From the IMG/VR virus record IMGVR_UViG_2541047807_000005: DNA of 34,598 bases; one strand, 5' to 3'. A program made the translations under genes and the position numbers. The notes beneath the pieces were generated by a model, which saw only the letters and a program-made list of their open reading frames with translations, was not told the origin of the DNA and did not search any database. How positions within the stretch are numbered: position 1 is the first letter of the stretch; each line of letters begins with the position of its first letter. Below are positions 8,246 to 19,316 of this stretch, one piece after another. This DNA is from a virus (taxonomy: Duplodnaviria; Heunggongvirae; Uroviricota; Caudoviricetes).

Positions 8246-8986
8246 TCAGTTTTCTTTGAATTTTTCACTTAATCGTTTCGTCAATACTTCGACAGATTCT
8301 TTGCGACCGGAGAACAAGTCATTGACGACGTACTCCATAATCTCAAAAGCATCCTCAATGTCTTTGACTTTTACTTCATCGTAGGTATGGCTTCCGGCAT
8401 TTCCTAAAAATTTAATTGCCATAAGAGGTCTTGAAAACGATCCGTATAATTCAGGTAGCATCCCTAAACGGTGGTGTAGAGTTATGCGTTTGCCATTATC
8501 ATTACGTTCAGCTACATCCATAGCGGTTAGCATTCTTTCAACTGAAATTCGAATTAGGTTTGCTGCTGCGCCAGGCTGTATTAGGAAAATGGAAAATGAG
8601 GCTTCAAGCGGTTCGGTAATTTCTTCTGGGCATTTTTCAGGTATTTCGAAAGGATGCAGTGATGGGTAAAAGGTGAAAGGTCTGTGCCATTGATAGTACT
8701 CAATATCATTTCTTTCTTCATCCCAACCTTGTTCCCATCCACTCTTACCAGTACAGGCCACAACTTCACCACATTGCATTCTTGAACAGCGGGCCATGCA
8801 ACTGAAAATAGATGAATCCATTTCTAGTTCAAACCAATCTTCACTGCGGAATTTTCGGGTATCATGTGTGTCATACGAGACGAAACTTTCTTTAATGATC
8901 TGTAGGGTTTTCTGATTGCAGTTAGGGCAGGGCCACTCAACCTGCATATCGTGGAAAAACGCACCAGAGAGCTTGTGCACAGTCAT
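8246..8986 (-). CDS. Hypothetical Cys-rich protein (246 aa) at the tin/old accessory position; candidate defence gene
   Basis: ORF with GAGGAA RBS; N-terminal CPNC...C-x3-C-x4-C-x5-C cluster; AT-rich versus phage core; opposite strand to gene A. Confidence 0.6.
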   Translation of the reverse strand: MTVHKLSGAFFHDMQVEWPCPNCNQKTLQIIKESFVSYDTHDTRKFRSEDWFELEMDSSIFSCMARCSRMQCGEVVACTGKSGWEQGWDEERNDIEYYQWHRPFTFYPSLHPFEIPEKCPEEITEPLEASFSIFLIQPGAAANLIRISVERMLTAMDVAERNDNGKRITLHHRLGMLPELYGSFSRPLMAIKFLGNAGSHTYDEVKVKDIEDAFEIMEYVVNDLFSGRKESVEVLTKRLSEKFKEN

Positions 8987-9344: not shown

Positions 9345-10157
9345 ATGGGGCATGCTATGATCTTTCTAAGTCATAATCACCGTGACAAAAGGTTTGTAAG
9401 TGTTATAGCGGAAAAACTAGCAGATGTTTATGGGCGTGATAACGTATTCTACGATTCTTGGTCTATCCAACCCGGAGAGGGTATTATTGACAAGATGAAT
9501 TTAGGAATGGAGAATGTATCGTTCTTTTTCTTTTTTGTCACAGAAAATAGCTTGGCAAGTAACATGGTAAAAATGGAATGGCAAAATGCTTTAATTAAGG
9601 CATCGTCCGGGAAGTGTAAATTTATACCAATACGTTGCCAGAATATATCCTTGCCTGCTCTGCTTACTCAAACGCTATATATTGATCTTTATTCGTATGG
9701 GATCGATGTGGCAATAAGACAAATTATAGATGTCATTAATCAACAAAATACGTATATTCCTAATCCTGAGAAGTATTCAAACCTCTCCTATGATATTAAG
9801 GATGATGATGGGGGTAAGATAGTGAAATTATCAGCAATGGATTTTTTAGAACCAATTGCTGATTTTATGATGATTATGGATAATACAATTAAGCATGATG
9901 ATGTTGTTGTTATGGTCAATGGAGAAAGCTCATTCACTCAGGGGTTTATTGAAAATGCATCTTTAGAAAATGGTATGAAAGTAAGTGGTGCCACTGTTGG
10001 CCTAAATCGGGGGTTAACACCAACGATGCCAATGTATGTTTCTCTTAGGTTAAAGGATGGTTCACCTTTGAATATATTTGCGGTGCTACATCGAGTAAGT
10101 ACCGAGCGTTATGCTCCTATACCACATAAAGCCGATGATGCCTTTAGAGTAAAATAA
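9345..10157 (+). CDS. TIR-domain protein (270 aa) with uncharacterised C-terminal domain; candidate anti-phage effector
   Basis: N-terminal region IFLSHNHRDKRFV...DSWSIQPGEGIIDKM...FFFFFVTENSLASNMVKMEW matches bacterial TIR pattern; AT-rich; between cos-like site and portal gene. Confidence 0.7.
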   Translation: MGHAMIFLSHNHRDKRFVSVIAEKLADVYGRDNVFYDSWSIQPGEGIIDKMNLGMENVSFFFFFVTENSLASNMVKMEWQNALIKASSGKCKFIPIRCQNISLPALLTQTLYIDLYSYGIDVAIRQIIDVINQQNTYIPNPEKYSNLSYDIKDDDGGKIVKLSAMDFLEPIADFMMIMDNTIKHDDVVVMVNGESSFTQGFIENASLENGMKVSGATVGLNRGLTPTMPMYVSLRLKDGSPLNIFAVLHRVSTERYAPIPHKADDAFRVK

Positions 10158-15793: not shown

Positions 15794-16258
15794 ATGAAGT
15801 TTGTTGCGCCAGAACAGGCACCGGAACAGGCGGAAATCATCAGAAATACGCCGTTCTGGCCTGATGTGGACCTGTCGGAGTTTCGCAGCGTGATGCGCAC
15901 TGACGGCACGGTGACGCAGCCGCGTTTAAAGCAGGTTGCGCTGTCGGCAATTTCGGAGGTCAACGCAGAGCTGTATGAGTTTCGCAGACGCCAGCAGATG
16001 CTGGGGTATGCCTCGCTGGCAGAGGTTCCGGCGGAACAGCTGGACGGCAAAAGTGAGCGCATTCAGCACTATTTCAACGCGGTTTACTGCTGGGCACGCG
16101 CCATGCTCAACGAACGTTACCAGGACTATGACGCCACGGCATTGGGTGTGAAGCGGGGCGAGGAACTGGCGGAAGCAAGCGGTGATTTGTGGCGTGACGC
16201 CCGCTGGGCCATCAGCCGGGTGCAGGATGCGCCGCACTGCACAGTGGAGCTTATCTGA
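15794..16258 (+). CDS. L: Head completion protein gpL
   Basis: ATG 15794 with AGGAG RBS (ORF track extends to 15731); synteny. Confidence 0.8.
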   Translation: MKFVAPEQAPEQAEIIRNTPFWPDVDLSEFRSVMRTDGTVTQPRLKQVALSAISEVNAELYEFRRRQQMLGYASLAEVPAEQLDGKSERIQHYFNAVYCWARAMLNERYQDYDATALGVKRGEELAEASGDLWRDARWAISRVQDAPHCTVELI

Positions 16259-16458
16259 TGAAAGTGCGTGCGCATCAGTATGACACGGTGGACGCGCTTT
16301 GCTGGCGTCATTACGGGCGCACGCAGGGTGTCACGGAGCAGGTACTGAAGGCAAATCCGGGGCTTGCCGAATACGGCCCCTTTTTACCTCACGGGCTGCA
16401 GGTGGAGCTGCCGGACATTCCGACCACCACCGTGCAGACCGTCCAGCTATGGGACTGA
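16258..16458 (+). CDS. X: Tail protein gpX
   Basis: 66 aa, start overlaps L stop, P2 gpX-like size. Confidence 0.75.
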   Translation: MKVRAHQYDTVDALCWRHYGRTQGVTEQVLKANPGLAEYGPFLPHGLQVELPDIPTTTVQTVQLWD

Positions 16459-16461
16459 ATT

Positions 16462-16677
16462 ATGACGCTTGAGCGAATCAGCGCCTTTATCACGTATTGC
16501 ATCGCCGTCGTGCTGGCCTGGCTGGGCGATTTGTCCATCAAGGATGCCTCAACGCTGGGCGGCCTGATGATCGGTGTGCTGATGCTGGCTATCAACTGGT
16601 ACTACAAACACAAAGCCTACCAGCTTCTGCGCGACGGGCAGATCTCGCGGGAGGACTATGAATCCATCAATCGTTAA
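16462..16677 (+). CDS. Holin, two predicted transmembrane segments (pinholin-like)
   Basis: 71 aa with two hydrophobic stretches and charged C-terminus; immediately upstream of endolysin. Confidence 0.65.
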   Translation: MTLERISAFITYCIAVVLAWLGDLSIKDASTLGGLMIGVLMLAINWYYKHKAYQLLRDGQISREDYESINR

Positions 16678-17173
16678 ACGCTGCCTTGTCGGGGCCGTGC
16701 TGGCTATTGCTGCCACGCTGCCGGGTTTTCAGCAGCTTCACACCTCCGTGGAAGGGCTGAAACTGATTGCCGATTACGAAGGTTGTCGTCTGCAGCCGTA
16801 TCAGTGCAGCGCGGGTGTCTGGACCGACGGCATTGGTAATACGTCGGGCGTCATTCCCGGCAAAACCATTACGGAGCGACAGGCAGCAGAAGGGCTGATC
16901 TCCAACGTGCTGCGTGTGGAGCGGGCGCTGGAAAGGTGTGTGAAGCAACAGCCGCCGCAGAAGGTATATGACGCTACGGTGTCGTTTGCCTTCAACGTGG
17001 GAACGGGCAATGCCTGCAGTTCCACGTTGGTGAAATTGCTCAACCAGCGGCGCTGGGCGGATGCGTGCCGACAGTTGCCGCGCTGGGTTTATGTAAAAGG
17101 TGTGTTTAATCAGGGGCTGGATAACCGCCGTGCGCGGGAGATGGCCTGGTGCCTTAAAGGAGCTGGACTATGA
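16658..17173 (+). CDS. SAR endolysin, T4/P1 Lyz-type lysozyme
   Basis: Motif EGCRLQPYQCSAGVWTDGIGNT (P1 Lyz-like catalytic region) preceded by weakly hydrophobic Gly/Ala-rich N-terminus with Cys (signal-anchor-release domain). Confidence 0.85.
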   Translation: MNPSIVKRCLVGAVLAIAATLPGFQQLHTSVEGLKLIADYEGCRLQPYQCSAGVWTDGIGNTSGVIPGKTITERQAAEGLISNVLRVERALERCVKQQPPQKVYDATVSFAFNVGTGNACSSTLVKLLNQRRWADACRQLPRWVYVKGVFNQGLDNRRAREMAWCLKGAGL

Positions 17174-17598
17174 CGCGTGCGCTGGCGGTAGTGGCGGCGC
17201 TGGCACTCGTTGCGCTGGGCTGGCAGTCGTGGCGGCTTAACAGCGCCAGCCACACCATCGAAACGCAGCGCGCGGCGCTGAACAGTAAAGCGCACGAACT
17301 AACGAAGAAAAATAGCCAGCTGATCAGTCTGTCCATTCTGGCTGAAACCAATAACCGGGAGCAGGCGCGGCTCTATGCCGAAGCAGAACAGACCAGCGCG
17401 CTGCTGAGACAACGACAACACCGGATCGAGGAACTGAAACGTGAGAACGAGGATTTACACCGCTGGGCTGATACTCCTTTGCCTGCTGACATTATCCGGC
17501 TGCGGGAACGTCCGACACTCACCGGAGGTGCAGCTTACCGTCAGTGGTTGTCCGCGAGTGACGCCGTGTCGGCTGGATCAGGCAGCGCCGCGCACTAA
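17170..17598 (+). CDS. lysB: LysB, Rz-like i-spanin
   Basis: N-terminal TM segment, coiled-coil-like Q/E/R-rich body; position after endolysin. Confidence 0.7.
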   Translation: MTRALAVVAALALVALGWQSWRLNSASHTIETQRAALNSKAHELTKKNSQLISLSILAETNNREQARLYAEAEQTSALLRQRQHRIEELKRENEDLHRWADTPLPADIIRLRERPTLTGGAAYRQWLSASDAVSAGSGSAAH

Positions 17599-17731
17599 CG
17601 GTGATCTGAACGCGTTGCTGGATGAAACGGAGGCCGCCTGGGCAGTCTGTGCAGACAAAGTGGACATGATTATTGCGTGTCAGGAGCGAAACAGTGAACA
17701 AACCACAGTCCCTGCGCCACGCCCTCAATAA
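17441..17731 (+). CDS. lysC: LysC, Rz1-like o-spanin lipoprotein, overlapping lysB in another frame
   Basis: Lipobox LTLSGC after signal peptide; Pro-rich; embedded/overlapping arrangement typical of P2 lysB/lysC; GTG start assumed. Confidence 0.6.
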   Translation: MRTRIYTAGLILLCLLTLSGCGNVRHSPEVQLTVSGCPRVTPCRLDQAAPRTNGDLNALLDETEAAWAVCADKVDMIIACQERNSEQTTVPAPRPQ

Positions 17732-18125
17732 AGCGGTGCCTTATGTCCGCAATAACCCGGACAAACTGCATCTGTTTGTGGATAACGGTTCGCTGGTTGC
17801 CACGGGGGCCAGCTCCATGTCATGGGAGTACCGTTACACCCTGAACGTGGTGATTGAGGATTTCAGCGGCGACCAGAATCTGCTGATGGCCCCGGTTTTG
17901 CTGTGGCTGCGGGATAACCAGCCTGATGCCATCAATAATCCGGCGTTACGGGAAAAACTATTCACCTTTGAGGTGGACATTCTGCGCAACGATGTCTGTG
18001 ATATCAGCCTTAACCTGCAACTGACGGAGCGGGTGCTGGTCAGTACTGACGGCAGTGTGTCGAGCGTTGAAGCGGTAGCGGAACCCGATGAACCTGAAGA
18101 AATGTGGACGGTGAAACGTGGCTGA
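17694..18125 (+). CDS. R: Tail completion protein gpR
   Basis: GTG 17694 with AGGAG RBS; KPQSLRHAL...LFVDNGS resembles P2 gpR N-terminus. Confidence 0.8.
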   Translation: MNKPQSLRHALNKAVPYVRNNPDKLHLFVDNGSLVATGASSMSWEYRYTLNVVIEDFSGDQNLLMAPVLLWLRDNQPDAINNPALREKLFTFEVDILRNDVCDISLNLQLTERVLVSTDGSVSSVEAVAEPDEPEEMWTVKRG

Positions 18126-18578: not shown

Positions 18579-19316
18579 TCATTCATTGTCAAATAATTTT
18601 TGCTCTTTCAATATTTGTGTCGAAAAATTATTGCTTATTAATTTTACAAGCTTGCCGCACAAATTAAATGAATATCTAAAATAATCTAAGTCAGGGATGA
18701 GGTATTCTTTTTCTTCAGAGGATATTCCTGCCTCTAATAATTTTTTTTCATATCTTTGGTCCTTCACCCAATTATTATGGACTCCTGTGTCTCGTCTTGC
18801 TTTAATTTCAATGTATTGTTTTAAGAGATGTTCTATTTTCTTTTTGTCTAAGCATAAGAGTTTGCATAATTTATTGATGTATTCTTTGGGTGATCCAAAT
18901 GTGAGACTCGCGACTCCTTCGTTGACTAGATAGTCAAAAAGTTCATCTTCAGATAATGACTTAAACACCCCATAATCACACTTAATTTTATTTAGTTTTT
19001 CTGGATTGATCCTGAAGGTCAACTTCATGATTTCAATAATGTAATCTTCAAATGCTGAAACAAGCGAACTAAAGCACAATGATGGCATATGTTTTGTTAT
19101 TAAATCATGCCGTATTCCTTTATCTGAGATTTCAGGTGAATGTTTTTCCAGAAAGCATTCAAGATTTGTATAAGCCTCATAAAGCTGAGGGTTAGTTTCC
19201 TCATTGGCGTGAGAGATGGCAATGTTTTGAAATATAATTGTTCTGAATAAAATATCAGCTTTAATAAAATATGATGATGTGATTTTATCCAGGAAGAGAT
19301 AATTATCGGAGTGCAT
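18579..19316 (-). CDS. AT-rich moron protein (245 aa) with R-x4-H HEPN-like motif; candidate abortive-infection/toxin RNase
   Basis: ORF opposite to the late operon between S and V; GAGGAA RBS; motif ARRDTGVH at residues 174-180 (coords ~18777-18797); strongly AT-rich. Confidence 0.6.
   Translation of the reverse strand: MHSDNYLFLDKITSSYFIKADILFRTIIFQNIAISHANEETNPQLYEAYTNLECFLEKHSPEISDKGIRHDLITKHMPSLCFSSLVSAFEDYIIEIMKLTFRINPEKLNKIKCDYGVFKSLSEDELFDYLVNEGVASLTFGSPKEYINKLCKLLCLDKKKIEHLLKQYIEIKARRDTGVHNNWVKDQRYEKKLLEAGISSEEKEYLIPDLDYFRYSFNLCGKLVKLISNNFSTQILKEQKLFDNE

What the first reader, a model, noticed from the sequence alone, without database searches (positions are those of the whole stretch)
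16462..17173. Lysis cassette looks like a pinholin plus SAR endolysin rather than the canonical P2 holin/endolysin
The endolysin has a P1 Lyz-like catalytic region (EGCRLQPYQCSAGVWTDGIGNT) behind a weakly hydrophobic Gly/Ala-rich N-terminal segment containing Cys, the hallmark of signal-anchor-release endolysins regulated by disulfide isomerisation. The preceding 71-aa holin has two predicted TM segments like the phage 21 pinholin. Overlapping lysB/lysC spanin genes follow.
Basis: partly seen in the sequence, partly recalled or inferred. Interest (0 to 1): 0.4.

Follow-up and report, generated by a model that had tools for sequence, protein, structure and literature searches.

The report
Known SAR-endolysin lysis cassette, P2-like prophage
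This P2-like E. coli prophage lyses its host with a small two-helix holin and a membrane-tethered, P1-Lyz-type lysozyme instead of the classic P2 holin and endolysin, but the cassette is common, routinely annotated and already described in relatives, so it is ordinary.

Summary
Window 16462-16677 encodes a 71-aa protein with two hydrophobic helices, in the Pfam HP1 holin family. Window 16658-17173 encodes a 171-aa GH24 lysozyme. P2-type overlapped spanins LysB and LysC follow.

The SAR endolysin reading is strongly supported:
- The best sequence and fold match is the active form of P1 Lyz (1XJT).
- A short Gly/Ala-rich segment (C9-F24) follows K7-R8.
- All seven Cys of P1 Lyz have counterparts, including C9, C43 and C50.
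- The N-terminal Cys is kept in 17 of 19 diverse relatives that have both the membrane segment and the Cys pair.

The pinholin reading is only plausible:
- The family founder, HP1 Hol, is an experimentally shown pinholin.
- This holin type preceded a SAR endolysin in all five other P2-like phages checked.
- However, the protein scores below the cut-off for the phage 21 family and has no dual start.
- Its first helix is strongly hydrophobic, unlike the releasable first helix of S21.

The cassette is not new. It occurs in 1037 of 5426 complete E. coli genomes, in Fels-2 and in Klebsiella prophages. The KP12 homologue was already called a Lyz-like SAR endolysin, and phage Midge is annotated the same way. 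Interest is low.

The parts
16258..16458 (+). gpX tail protein gene (context; upstream neighbour, as in P2)
   Evidence: PF05489 Phage_tail_X, 3e-34
16462..16677 (+). 71-aa class II (two-TMD) holin of the HP1 holin family; probable pinholin. TMD1 is residues 6-22, TMD2 is residues 29-45, followed by a charged C-terminal tail.
   Evidence: PF16080 scores 36.7 bits against a gathering cut-off of 28.8; PF04971 scores 23.2 against 26; phrog_20 holin 1.9e-26. Hydropathy. PGAP names the 100% identical E. coli loci 'HP1 family phage holin'.
16658..17173 (+). 171-aa GH24 lysozyme with an N-terminal signal-anchor-release domain (P1 Lyz type)
   Evidence: PF00959 4.5e-40. P1 Lyz 1XJT at 2.1e-26. AF2 model pLDDT 94. 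Foldseek top hit 1XJT, TM 0.85.
16682..16729 (+). Codons 9-24: the hydrophobic core of the SAR domain, CLVGAVLAIAATLPGF, including Cys9. K7-R8 lie immediately upstream.
   Evidence: Hydropathy and composition. Cys at positions 6-12 is kept in 17 of 19 diverse relatives that have both the TM segment and the cage Cys pair. Cys9 is invariant in the 80 closest loci.
16778..16843 (+). Codons 41-62: catalytic Glu41, the candidate caging pair Cys43/Cys50, and Thr56
   Evidence: Alignments to P1 Lyz E42/C44/C51/T57
17170..17598 (+). lysB, i-spanin (Rz-like), with an N-terminal TMD. Its start overlaps the endolysin stop (ATGA).
   Evidence: TIGR03495 scores 171.5 bits against a cut-off of 92.75. phrog_89 5.3e-45.
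17441..17731 (+). lysC, o-spanin (Rz1-like) lipoprotein. It has a GTG start with GAGGA 8 nt upstream and lipobox L-S-G-C21. It is overlapped with lysB in another reading frame.
   Evidence: NF038368 scores 122.8 bits against a cut-off of 27. PF23793 1.3e-15. Sequence read.
17673..18125 (+). gpR tail completion gene (context; downstream neighbour)
   Evidence: PF06891, 4.2e-47

Best explanation
This is the lysis module of a P2-like (Peduoviridae, Elveevirus-type) E. coli prophage. The P2 holin Y, endolysin K and LysA are replaced by an HP1-family two-helix holin and a P1-Lyz-type SAR endolysin. The P2-type LysB/LysC spanins are retained.

Proposed mechanism (shown = sequence or structure evidence here; inferred = by analogy):
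1. All genes lie in the late capsid/tail operon with overlapping or abutting reading frames (shown).
2. The endolysin is exported by Sec through its N-terminal K7-R8 plus C9-F24 segment. It accumulates tethered to the inner membrane with its catalytic domain in the periplasm (inferred from P1 Lyz, R21 and HP1 Lys).
3. While tethered it is held inactive by a Cys43-Cys50 disulfide next to catalytic Glu41. Cys50 occupies the position of the catalytic Asp of T4 lysozyme and R21 (inferred from P1 Lyz).
4. The holin accumulates as an N-in/C-in hairpin. At a set time it forms lesions, probably small ones, that collapse the membrane potential (inferred; the family founder HP1 Hol behaves this way).
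5. Depolarisation lets the SAR segment leave the bilayer. Cys9 attacks the cage to give Cys9-Cys43, and the SAR segment refolds onto the catalytic domain. The AF2 model matches the active Lyz conformer.
6. The murein is degraded, and the LysB-LysC spanin complex disrupts the outer membrane.

The overall confidence of 0.8 is for 'SAR endolysin plus HP1-family class II holin plus P2-type spanins'. Within that, I put the SAR endolysin at about 0.9, the disulfide-isomerisation step at about 0.7, and small-hole (pinholin) behaviour of the holin at about 0.55-0.6.
For: -
- The best PDB sequence hits are P1 Lyz 1XJT (2.1e-26), then R21 and RrrD.
- The AF2 model has pLDDT 94, with residues 11-26 confidently packed.
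- Foldseek ranks 1XJT (active Lyz) first at TM 0.85. The next two are the other solved full-length SAR endolysins, RrrD (4ZPU) and R21 (3HDE). Inactive Lyz without its SAR domain (1XJU) scores only 0.57.
- There are seven Cys, at 9, 43, 50, 94, 120, 137 and 165. They match P1 Lyz 13, 44, 51, 91, 118, 150 and 178.
- Among cluster representatives at 50% identity, 19 diverse relatives have both an N-terminal hydrophobic segment and the EGC...C pair. Of these, 17 have one Cys at residues 6-12. The two exceptions look N-terminally truncated.
- The same holin type is followed by an 'xxSIVKRC...' SAR-type endolysin in Fels-2, Yersinia vB_YenM_06.16-2, vB_YpM_MDG94-186, Klebsiella RCIP0057 (record annotation 'SAR-endolysin') and Erwinia EtG.
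- In HP1, a P2-like phage, Lys lyses E. coli on its own and phage release from H. influenzae is suppressed by Sec inhibition. Hol kills without beta-galactosidase leakage (PMC7312051).
- The KP12 homologue was already modelled as a Lyz-like SAR endolysin (PMC9902359).
- Midge is annotated as class II holin plus SAR endolysin (PMC12697156).
Against: - Nothing was tested experimentally for this exact cassette.
- No dedicated TM or signal-peptide predictor was available. An A16-I17-A18|A19 signal peptidase site cannot be formally excluded, although it would leave an h-region of only about 7 residues.
- The EGC...C pair also occurs in 25 soluble GH24 representatives that lack any membrane segment. 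The pair alone is therefore not diagnostic of caging.
- Holin TMD1 is strongly hydrophobic (KD 2.12, Hessa sum -0.56). S21-type TMD1 scores 0.56 and +7.0; HP1 Hol TMD1 scores 1.44 and +3.9. An S21-style exit of TMD1 is not supported.
- Similarity of the holin to HP1 Hol and S21 is weak in pairwise and small-profile comparisons.
Confidence: 0.8

Rival explanations
1. The 71-aa protein is a canonical, large-hole class II holin rather than a pinholin. The SAR endolysin would still be activated, because any holin depolarises the membrane. P1 Lyz works with the holin LydA as well as with the pinholin LydD.
For: - TMD1 is as hydrophobic as a stable transmembrane helix (KD 2.12, Hessa sum -0.56).
- The protein scores below the gathering cut-off for the S21 family (23.2 against 26).
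- It has no dual start.
- In P1, both holins and pinholins cooperate with the SAR endolysin (PMC9025707).
- The Midge annotators use 'class II holin'.
Against: - Pfam membership in the HP1 holin family is above the cut-off. The HP1 founder caused death without beta-galactosidase leakage (PMC7312051).
- In all five other P2-like phages checked, this holin type sits in front of a SAR endolysin and never in front of a soluble one.
Confidence: 0.3
2. The N-terminal segment of the endolysin is a cleavable Sec signal peptide. The enzyme would then be secreted as a soluble periplasmic protein and controlled in some other way.
For: - n-, h- and c-like regions are present, with a possible A-I-A|A site at residues 16-19 (read directly from the sequence).
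- SignalP also calls the HP1 Lys N-terminus a signal peptide.
Against: - Cleavage would remove Cys9, which is conserved in 17 of 19 diverse relatives although the rest of the segment varies.
- Residues 11-26 are modelled with pLDDT of about 95 as part of the folded enzyme, as in active P1 Lyz 1XJT.
- No small-x-small site follows the Pro22-Gly23 helix breaker.
- The homologues P1 Lyz and R21 crystallised with their N-terminal segment present (1XJT, 3HDE).
Confidence: 0.06
3. The N-terminal segment is a permanent membrane anchor, and the enzyme acts while tethered, with no release step.
For: The segment reaches the hydropathy of a TM helix (KD 2.11).
Against: - The hydrophobic core is only 16 residues long, half of it Gly/Ala/Thr, with a Pro-Gly near its end. 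Its summed Hessa dG is +1.35.
- The closest solved homologues are all release-activated.
- The model places the segment inside the globular fold.
Confidence: 0.03

Closest known systems
Haemophilus phage HP1 Hol / Lys (PMC7312051)
   Same: - It is a P2-like myophage.
- Its holin belongs to the same Pfam family (PF16080), with no dual start and no antiholin.
- The holin gene overlaps the downstream gene for a GH24 SAR endolysin.
- That endolysin has a Cys in its SAR segment and an EGC...C motif, and is 34% identical to the window endolysin at 2e-27.
   Different: - The holins are only about 21% identical.
- HP1 TMD1 is weakly hydrophobic, while the window TMD1 is strongly hydrophobic.
- The HP1 cassette lies after the tail tube gene, not after gpX.
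- No lysC is annotated in HP1.
Phage P1 Lyz (PDB 1XJT/1XJU), with holins LydA and LydC and pinholin LydD
   Same: - It is the best sequence and fold match.
- All seven Cys have counterparts, including the SAR Cys and the pair beside the catalytic Glu.
- The model matches the active conformer.
   Different: - Identity is only 35%.
- The SAR Cys sits at the cytoplasmic edge of the segment (C9, directly after K7-R8) rather than several residues in (C13).
- The window protein lacks the 12-residue insertion of Lyz.
- The P1 pinholin LydD is unrelated to the window holin.
Phage 21 / DLP12 S21 (EssD) pinholin and R21 (RrrD) SAR endolysin
   Same: - The holin is also 71 aa with two TMDs.
- The two holins show co-linear weak similarity, including the N-terminal M-[DE]-K-[IL]-[ST] motif and the N-x-Y-[YF]-K-x-K motif after TMD2.
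- The endolysin is also a GH24 SAR endolysin.
   Different: - The window holin scores below the PF04971 cut-off.
- S21 TMD1 is Gly/Ala/Ser-rich and releasable, while the window TMD1 is not.
- S21 has a dual start.
- R21 has no caging Cys pair and is regulated by refolding rather than by disulfide isomerisation.
Phage P2 Y / K / LysA / LysB / LysC
   Same: - The position in the late operon is the same, between gpX and gpR.
- LysB and LysC are homologous (28% and 40% identity; NCBIfam equivalog models are met).
- The spanin genes have the same overlapped architecture.
   Different: - P2 Y is a 93-aa, three-TMD holin of PF04550.
- P2 K is a cytoplasmic endolysin without an N-terminal TMD, 16% identical to the window endolysin.
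- LysA is absent from the window.
Near-identical cassettes: Escherichia phage Cartapus, Klebsiella phages KP12 and 4LV2017, Fels-2, and E. coli prophages
   Same: - Nucleotide identity is 98% to Cartapus and 95-97% to the Klebsiella prophages.
- Three complete E. coli genomes are 100% identical.
- Holin amino-acid identity to Fels-2 is 80%.
- The KP12 endolysin was already called Lyz-like SAR (PMC9902359).
   Different: - KP12, 4LV2017 and 813R9 carry a 378-nt lysA between the endolysin gene and lysB. The window and Cartapus do not.

Membership tests
SAR endolysin, P1 Lyz (disulfide-isomerisation) type | GH24 / T4-lysozyme-like muramidase domain with a catalytic Glu and Thr | tested here: met
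   PF00959 scores 137 bits. E41 and T56 align with Lyz E42 and T57. The model fits 1XJT at TM 0.85.
SAR endolysin, P1 Lyz (disulfide-isomerisation) type | N-terminal, weakly hydrophobic, Gly/Ala-rich TMD preceded by basic residues (type II signal anchor) | tested here: met
   K7-R8 is followed by C9-F24. The segment has KD 2.11 and Hessa sum +1.35, and 8 of its 16 residues are G/A/T. This is comparable to Lyz, R21-type RrrD and HP1 Lys. The test used hydropathy only; no TMHMM or SignalP was available.
SAR endolysin, P1 Lyz (disulfide-isomerisation) type | One Cys in the SAR segment plus a Cys pair flanking the catalytic Glu region (C13, C44 and C51 in Lyz) | tested here: met
   C9, C43 and C50 are present. 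They co-occur in 17 of 19 diverse relatives and are invariant in the 80 closest loci.
SAR endolysin, P1 Lyz (disulfide-isomerisation) type | The N-terminus is not cleaved. The protein is released from the membrane on depolarisation and lyses cells without a holin. | not testable with these tools
   Needs fractionation with immunoblots and lysis assays with energy poisons.
Pinholin of the phage 21 S21 type | Sequence membership in PF04971 (P21 holin S) | tested here: not met
   Scores 23.2 bits against a gathering cut-off of 26. BLASTP similarity is limited to TMD2.
Pinholin of the phage 21 S21 type | Two TMDs with an N-in/C-in starting topology | tested here: met
   Two hydrophobic stretches at 6-22 and 29-45. 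The loop has net charge -1 and the C-terminal tail is highly charged. The topology itself is inferred.
Pinholin of the phage 21 S21 type | TMD1 is itself a weakly hydrophobic SAR domain that leaves the membrane | tested here: not met
   Window TMD1 has KD 2.12 and Hessa sum -0.56. EssD (S21-type) TMD1 has 0.56 and +7.0. The test used hydropathy only, so actual release is untested.
Pinholin of the phage 21 S21 type | Dual-start motif giving an antiholin and a holin | tested here: not met
   There is a single ATG. The in-frame TGA of gpX ends 3 nt upstream, and codon 3 is CTT. The Yersinia and EtG relatives do start MGL(K/S/T)MEK.
Pinholin of the phage 21 S21 type | Small (about 2 nm) holes that depolarise the membrane but do not pass folded proteins | not testable with these tools
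   Needs lambda R complementation or beta-galactosidase leakage assays.
HP1 holin family (Pfam PF16080; TCDB 1.E.7) | Profile score above the curated cut-off | tested here: met
   Scores 36.7 bits against a gathering cut-off of 28.8. HP1 Hol itself scores 84.6. PGAP names the identical E. coli loci 'HP1 family phage holin'.
HP1 holin family (Pfam PF16080; TCDB 1.E.7) | Gene lies immediately upstream of, and overlaps, a SAR endolysin gene in a P2-like phage | tested here: met
   The overlap is 20 nt in the window. The same arrangement is seen in HP1, Fels-2, the Yersinia phages, EtG and RCIP0057.
P2 LysB/LysC two-component spanin | i-spanin with an N-terminal TMD, o-spanin with a lipobox, overlapped genes, and equivalog models met | tested here: met
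   TIGR03495 scores 171.5 against 92.75. NF038368 scores 122.8 against 27. The lipobox is LSGC21 and the overlap is 158 nt.
Canonical P2 holin Y / endolysin K | Homology to P2 Y (PF04550, three TMDs) and to P2 K (no TMD) | tested here: not met
   The window holin has no PF04550 hit, while P2 Y scores 143.6 bits. K is 16% identical to the window endolysin in the multiple alignment.

The most novel reading that the evidence does not exclude
The enterobacterial branch of the HP1 holin family (window, Fels-2, Klebsiella prophages) may trigger by a route different from S21. Its hydrophobicity pattern is reversed: TMD1 is strongly hydrophobic, while TMD2 is the weak, Gly/small-residue-rich helix. 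It has no dual start. In this lineage lysA is present or absent between otherwise near-identical cassettes (24 of the 80 closest loci lack it). If so, these would be pinholins, or small holins, without a releasable TMD1. LysA would then be a dispensable modulator acting on a SAR-endolysin system rather than on a canonical holin.
Probability: 0.2. Interest if true: 0.35.

Novelty: already known. Interest (0 to 1): 0.13.

Why it matters
It matters little beyond correct annotation. The cassette shows the familiar mosaicism of P2-like late operons, in which a holin-endolysin pair is swapped as a unit while the spanins stay. It also supports annotating the 'lysozyme' of Fels-2/Elveevirus-type prophages as a SAR endolysin of the P1 Lyz class. 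Two practical points follow. Recombinant use of this endolysin should take account of the N-terminal membrane segment and the regulatory cysteines. The natural variants with and without lysA offer a cheap way to ask what LysA does alongside a SAR endolysin.

Tried and rejected
- A single-sequence AlphaFold run gave an unusable model (pLDDT 44.7). It was repeated with a 53-sequence alignment.
- The search for related loci in IMG/VR returned only relatives at 96-100% identity. These were useless for conservation analysis but were used to count lysA presence and absence.
- The search for homologous proteins listed only relatives at 80% identity or more. Diversity came instead from the search of 50%-identity representatives.
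- My first regular-expression and window classification missed Cys9, because it lies at the edge of the best hydropathy window. It was redone on the whole N-terminus.
- The idea that the EGC...C pair alone marks SAR regulation was rejected. 25 soluble GH24 representatives carry it without any membrane segment.
- The holin search against PDB sequences gave only chance hits to photosystem helices.
- Pairwise and small-profile comparisons of the holin with HP1 Hol, EssD and P1 LydD were weak or null. Holin family membership therefore rests on the Pfam profile.
- The 296-aa 'endolysin-LysA fusion' proteins in the database were examined and judged to be frameshifted calls, not a real architecture.
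- The promoter and terminator scan showed nothing informative inside the cassette.
- NCBIfam has no model that the holin reaches.

Full report
**1. What is there**

The window between 16258 and 18125 holds these genes in one direction:
- gpX: 16258-16458
- a 71-aa ORF: 16462-16677
- a 171-aa ORF: 16658-17173, overlapping the previous one by 20 nt
- lysB: 17170-17598, whose start overlaps the previous stop
- lysC: 17441-17731, in another frame, GTG start with GAGGA 8 nt upstream
- gpR: 17673-18125

Family assignments are as follows.
- Pfam: Phage_tail_X; Phage_holin_2_3 (HP1 holin family) at 36.7 bits, above its cut-off of 28.8; Phage_holin_2_1 (P21 holin S) at 23.2 bits, below its cut-off of 26; Phage_lysozyme at 4.5e-40; LysC; and P2_Phage_GpR.
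- PHROGs agrees: holin, endolysin and Rz-like spanins.
- NCBIfam equivalog models for P2 LysB and LysC are met by wide margins.

**2. Where it comes from and how common it is**

- The 1.6-kb region is 98% identical to Escherichia phage Cartapus (Peduoviridae, Elveevirus) and 95-97% identical to many Klebsiella prophages such as KP12 and 4LV2017.
- The holin is 80% identical to that of Fels-2.
- The cassette is found in 1037 of 5426 complete E. coli genomes, three of them at 100% identity. NCBI's pipeline names the genes 'HP1 family phage holin', 'lysozyme', 'LysB' and 'LysC'.
- IMG/VR holds at least 595 close relatives.

This is an ordinary, very widespread prophage module.

**3. It is not the P2 Y/K pair**

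- P2 Y is a 93-aa protein with three hydrophobic helices, in Pfam PF04550.
- P2 K has no N-terminal hydrophobic segment and is 16% identical to the window endolysin.
- P2 also has lysA between K and lysB.
- LysB and LysC are homologous to the P2 proteins (28% and 40% identity), with the same overlapped layout.

The module is therefore a mosaic. The holin-endolysin pair has been replaced, and the spanins and flanking tail genes are P2-type.

**4. The endolysin**

- Sequence. The best solved relatives by sequence are P1 Lyz (1XJT, 2.1e-26), followed by R21 and DLP12 RrrD.
- Fold. With a 53-sequence alignment AlphaFold gives pLDDT 94 and pTM 0.89. Residues 11-26 are confidently packed into the fold. 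Foldseek ranks the active form of P1 Lyz first (TM 0.85 over 173 columns, N-terminus included). The other two full-length SAR endolysin structures come next. The inactive Lyz form without its SAR domain scores only 0.57.
- N-terminus. It reads MNPSIVKR-CLVGAVLAIAATLPGF-Q: two basic residues, then 16 uncharged residues, half of them Gly/Ala/Thr, ending in Pro-Gly-Phe. Its hydropathy is like that of the SAR segments of Lyz, RrrD and HP1 Lys.
- Cysteines. The protein has seven Cys, at 9, 43, 50, 94, 120, 137 and 165. They correspond one-to-one to the seven Cys of P1 Lyz at 13, 44, 51, 91, 118, 150 and 178. Cys50 occupies the position of the catalytic Asp of R21 and T4 lysozyme.

Conservation was tested on representatives of clusters at 50% identity.
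- 19 diverse relatives have both an N-terminal hydrophobic segment and the EGC...C pair. Of these, 17 have exactly one Cys at residues 6-12, although the rest of that segment varies freely.
- The two exceptions start inside the hydrophobic segment and look like truncated gene calls.
- A cleaved signal peptide would discard this Cys, so its conservation argues for a retained, functional N-terminus.
- One caution applies. The EGC...C pair alone also occurs in 25 soluble GH24 enzymes. It is the three-Cys combination with the membrane segment that is informative.

The disulfide-isomerisation step itself is inferred from the published P1 Lyz mechanism. It was not shown here.

**5. The holin**

Hydropathy shows two helices, at 6-22 and 29-45. 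The loop between them is slightly acidic and the C-terminal tail is highly charged. This is the class II pattern.

Evidence that favours the pinholin reading:
- Family membership rests on the Pfam HP1-holin profile. Pairwise similarity to HP1 Hol (21%), to the S21-type EssD (TMD2 only) and to P1 LydD (none) is weak.
- The founder, HP1 Hol, was shown to kill E. coli without beta-galactosidase leakage and to be needed for phage release. HP1 Lys is a Sec-dependent SAR endolysin (PMC7312051).
- In five further P2-like phages from four genera, this holin type is always followed by an 'xxSIVKRC' SAR-type endolysin.

Evidence against a strict S21-type pinholin:
- Window TMD1 is strongly hydrophobic (KD 2.12, Hessa sum -0.56). 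S21-type TMD1 scores 0.56 and +7.0.
- TMD2, not TMD1, is the weaker helix.
- There is no dual start.

The defining S21 features of a releasable TMD1 and an antiholin isoform are therefore not met. I rate 'small-hole holin' at about 0.55-0.6 and 'canonical class II holin' at about 0.3. Either would trigger a SAR endolysin.

**6. Prior knowledge**

- The Fels-2 record already notes 'two transmembrane domains; putative holin' and 'similarity to Lyz [P1]'.
- The KP12 paper modelled the homologous endolysin (KP12.peg.319; the KP12 cassette is 95.4% identical at the DNA level). It aligned it to 1XJT (TM-align 0.83) and stated that the SAR domain is conserved. It did not settle on the adjacent 71-aa protein as the pinholin (PMC9902359).
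- The RCIP0057 record annotates its homologue as 'SAR-endolysin'.
- The announcement of phage Midge lists a class II holin, a signal-arrest-release endolysin and spanins (PMC12697156).

The finding is therefore a correct reading of a known arrangement.

**7. lysA**

- The window and Cartapus lack the 378-nt lysA that KP12, 4LV2017 and 813R9 carry between the endolysin gene and lysB.
- In the alignment the sequences diverge from about endolysin codon 165 and still differ in the first ~25 codons of lysB. This looks like replacement by recombination rather than a clean deletion.
- Of the 80 closest IMG/VR loci, 24 lack lysA and 54 have it.

This is a minor but real polymorphism in a putative lysis-timing gene.

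**8. Verdict**

The SAR endolysin of the P1 Lyz type is strongly supported. The pinholin reading is plausible by family and pairing but is not demonstrated, and it differs from S21 in defining features. The cassette is already known and very common, so interest is low.

Noticed in passing
window 17173/17170 junction; L002 (KP12) 1976-2353: lysA, a 378-nt gene for a putative antiholin-like membrane protein, is absent here and in phage Cartapus. It is present in KP12, 4LV2017 and 813R9, and is annotated as two separate ORFs at that position in Fels-2. 24 of the 80 closest IMG/VR loci lack it. The flanks (the end of the endolysin gene and the first ~25 codons of lysB) also differ, which suggests recombinational replacement rather than simple deletion.
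   Followed up: partly
window 9345-10157 (+) and 8246-8986 (-): A 270-aa ORF has N-terminal TIR-like matches in PADLOC (TIR-NLR 4.8e-8, PDC-S66 1.2e-7, ThsB 6.7e-4). A neighbouring 246-aa ORF has a weak PD-T7-4 match (1.6e-5). They lie next to the ORF that by position is probably the portal gene (not verified) and are candidate anti-phage cargo in a P2-type variable region.
   Followed up: no
window 18579-19316 (-): A 245-aa ORF on the opposite strand has no Pfam or PADLOC match. It sits between gpS and the ORF that by synteny is probably gpV, at the position of P2 orf30. Cartapus carries a different 176-aa ORF there, so this looks like a moron or cargo slot.
   Followed up: partly
proteins P0015, P0017 and about 30 others: Many database entries of 276-300 aa join the endolysin (to about residue 160) to LysA through a short out-of-frame stretch. 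These look like frameshifted gene calls or assembly errors rather than a real fusion protein.
   Followed up: partly
L088, L089, L091 at 2195-2416: The homologous holins of the Yersinia and Erwinia EtG-type phages begin MGL(K/S/T)MEK, which gives two Met codons four codons apart (M1 and M5). This resembles the S21 dual start MKSMDK. The window and Fels-2 holins have a single start.
   Followed up: partly
L092 (Fels-2) 2397-2906: The RefSeq start of the Fels-2 endolysin (a GTG giving 158 aa) cuts off the first part of the SAR segment. The upstream ATG gives MNPSIVKRCLV..., matching the window protein.
   Followed up: yes
OM835953.1 (Klebsiella phage KP12 'clone KP12_3'): The KP12 record that carries this cassette is classified under Vequintavirinae. 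Yet the stretch examined (the late capsid-completion, lysis and tail-completion genes) is P2-like in order and about 95% identical to the window. The published 'KP12 genome' therefore probably mixes contigs from more than one phage or prophage.
   Followed up: no
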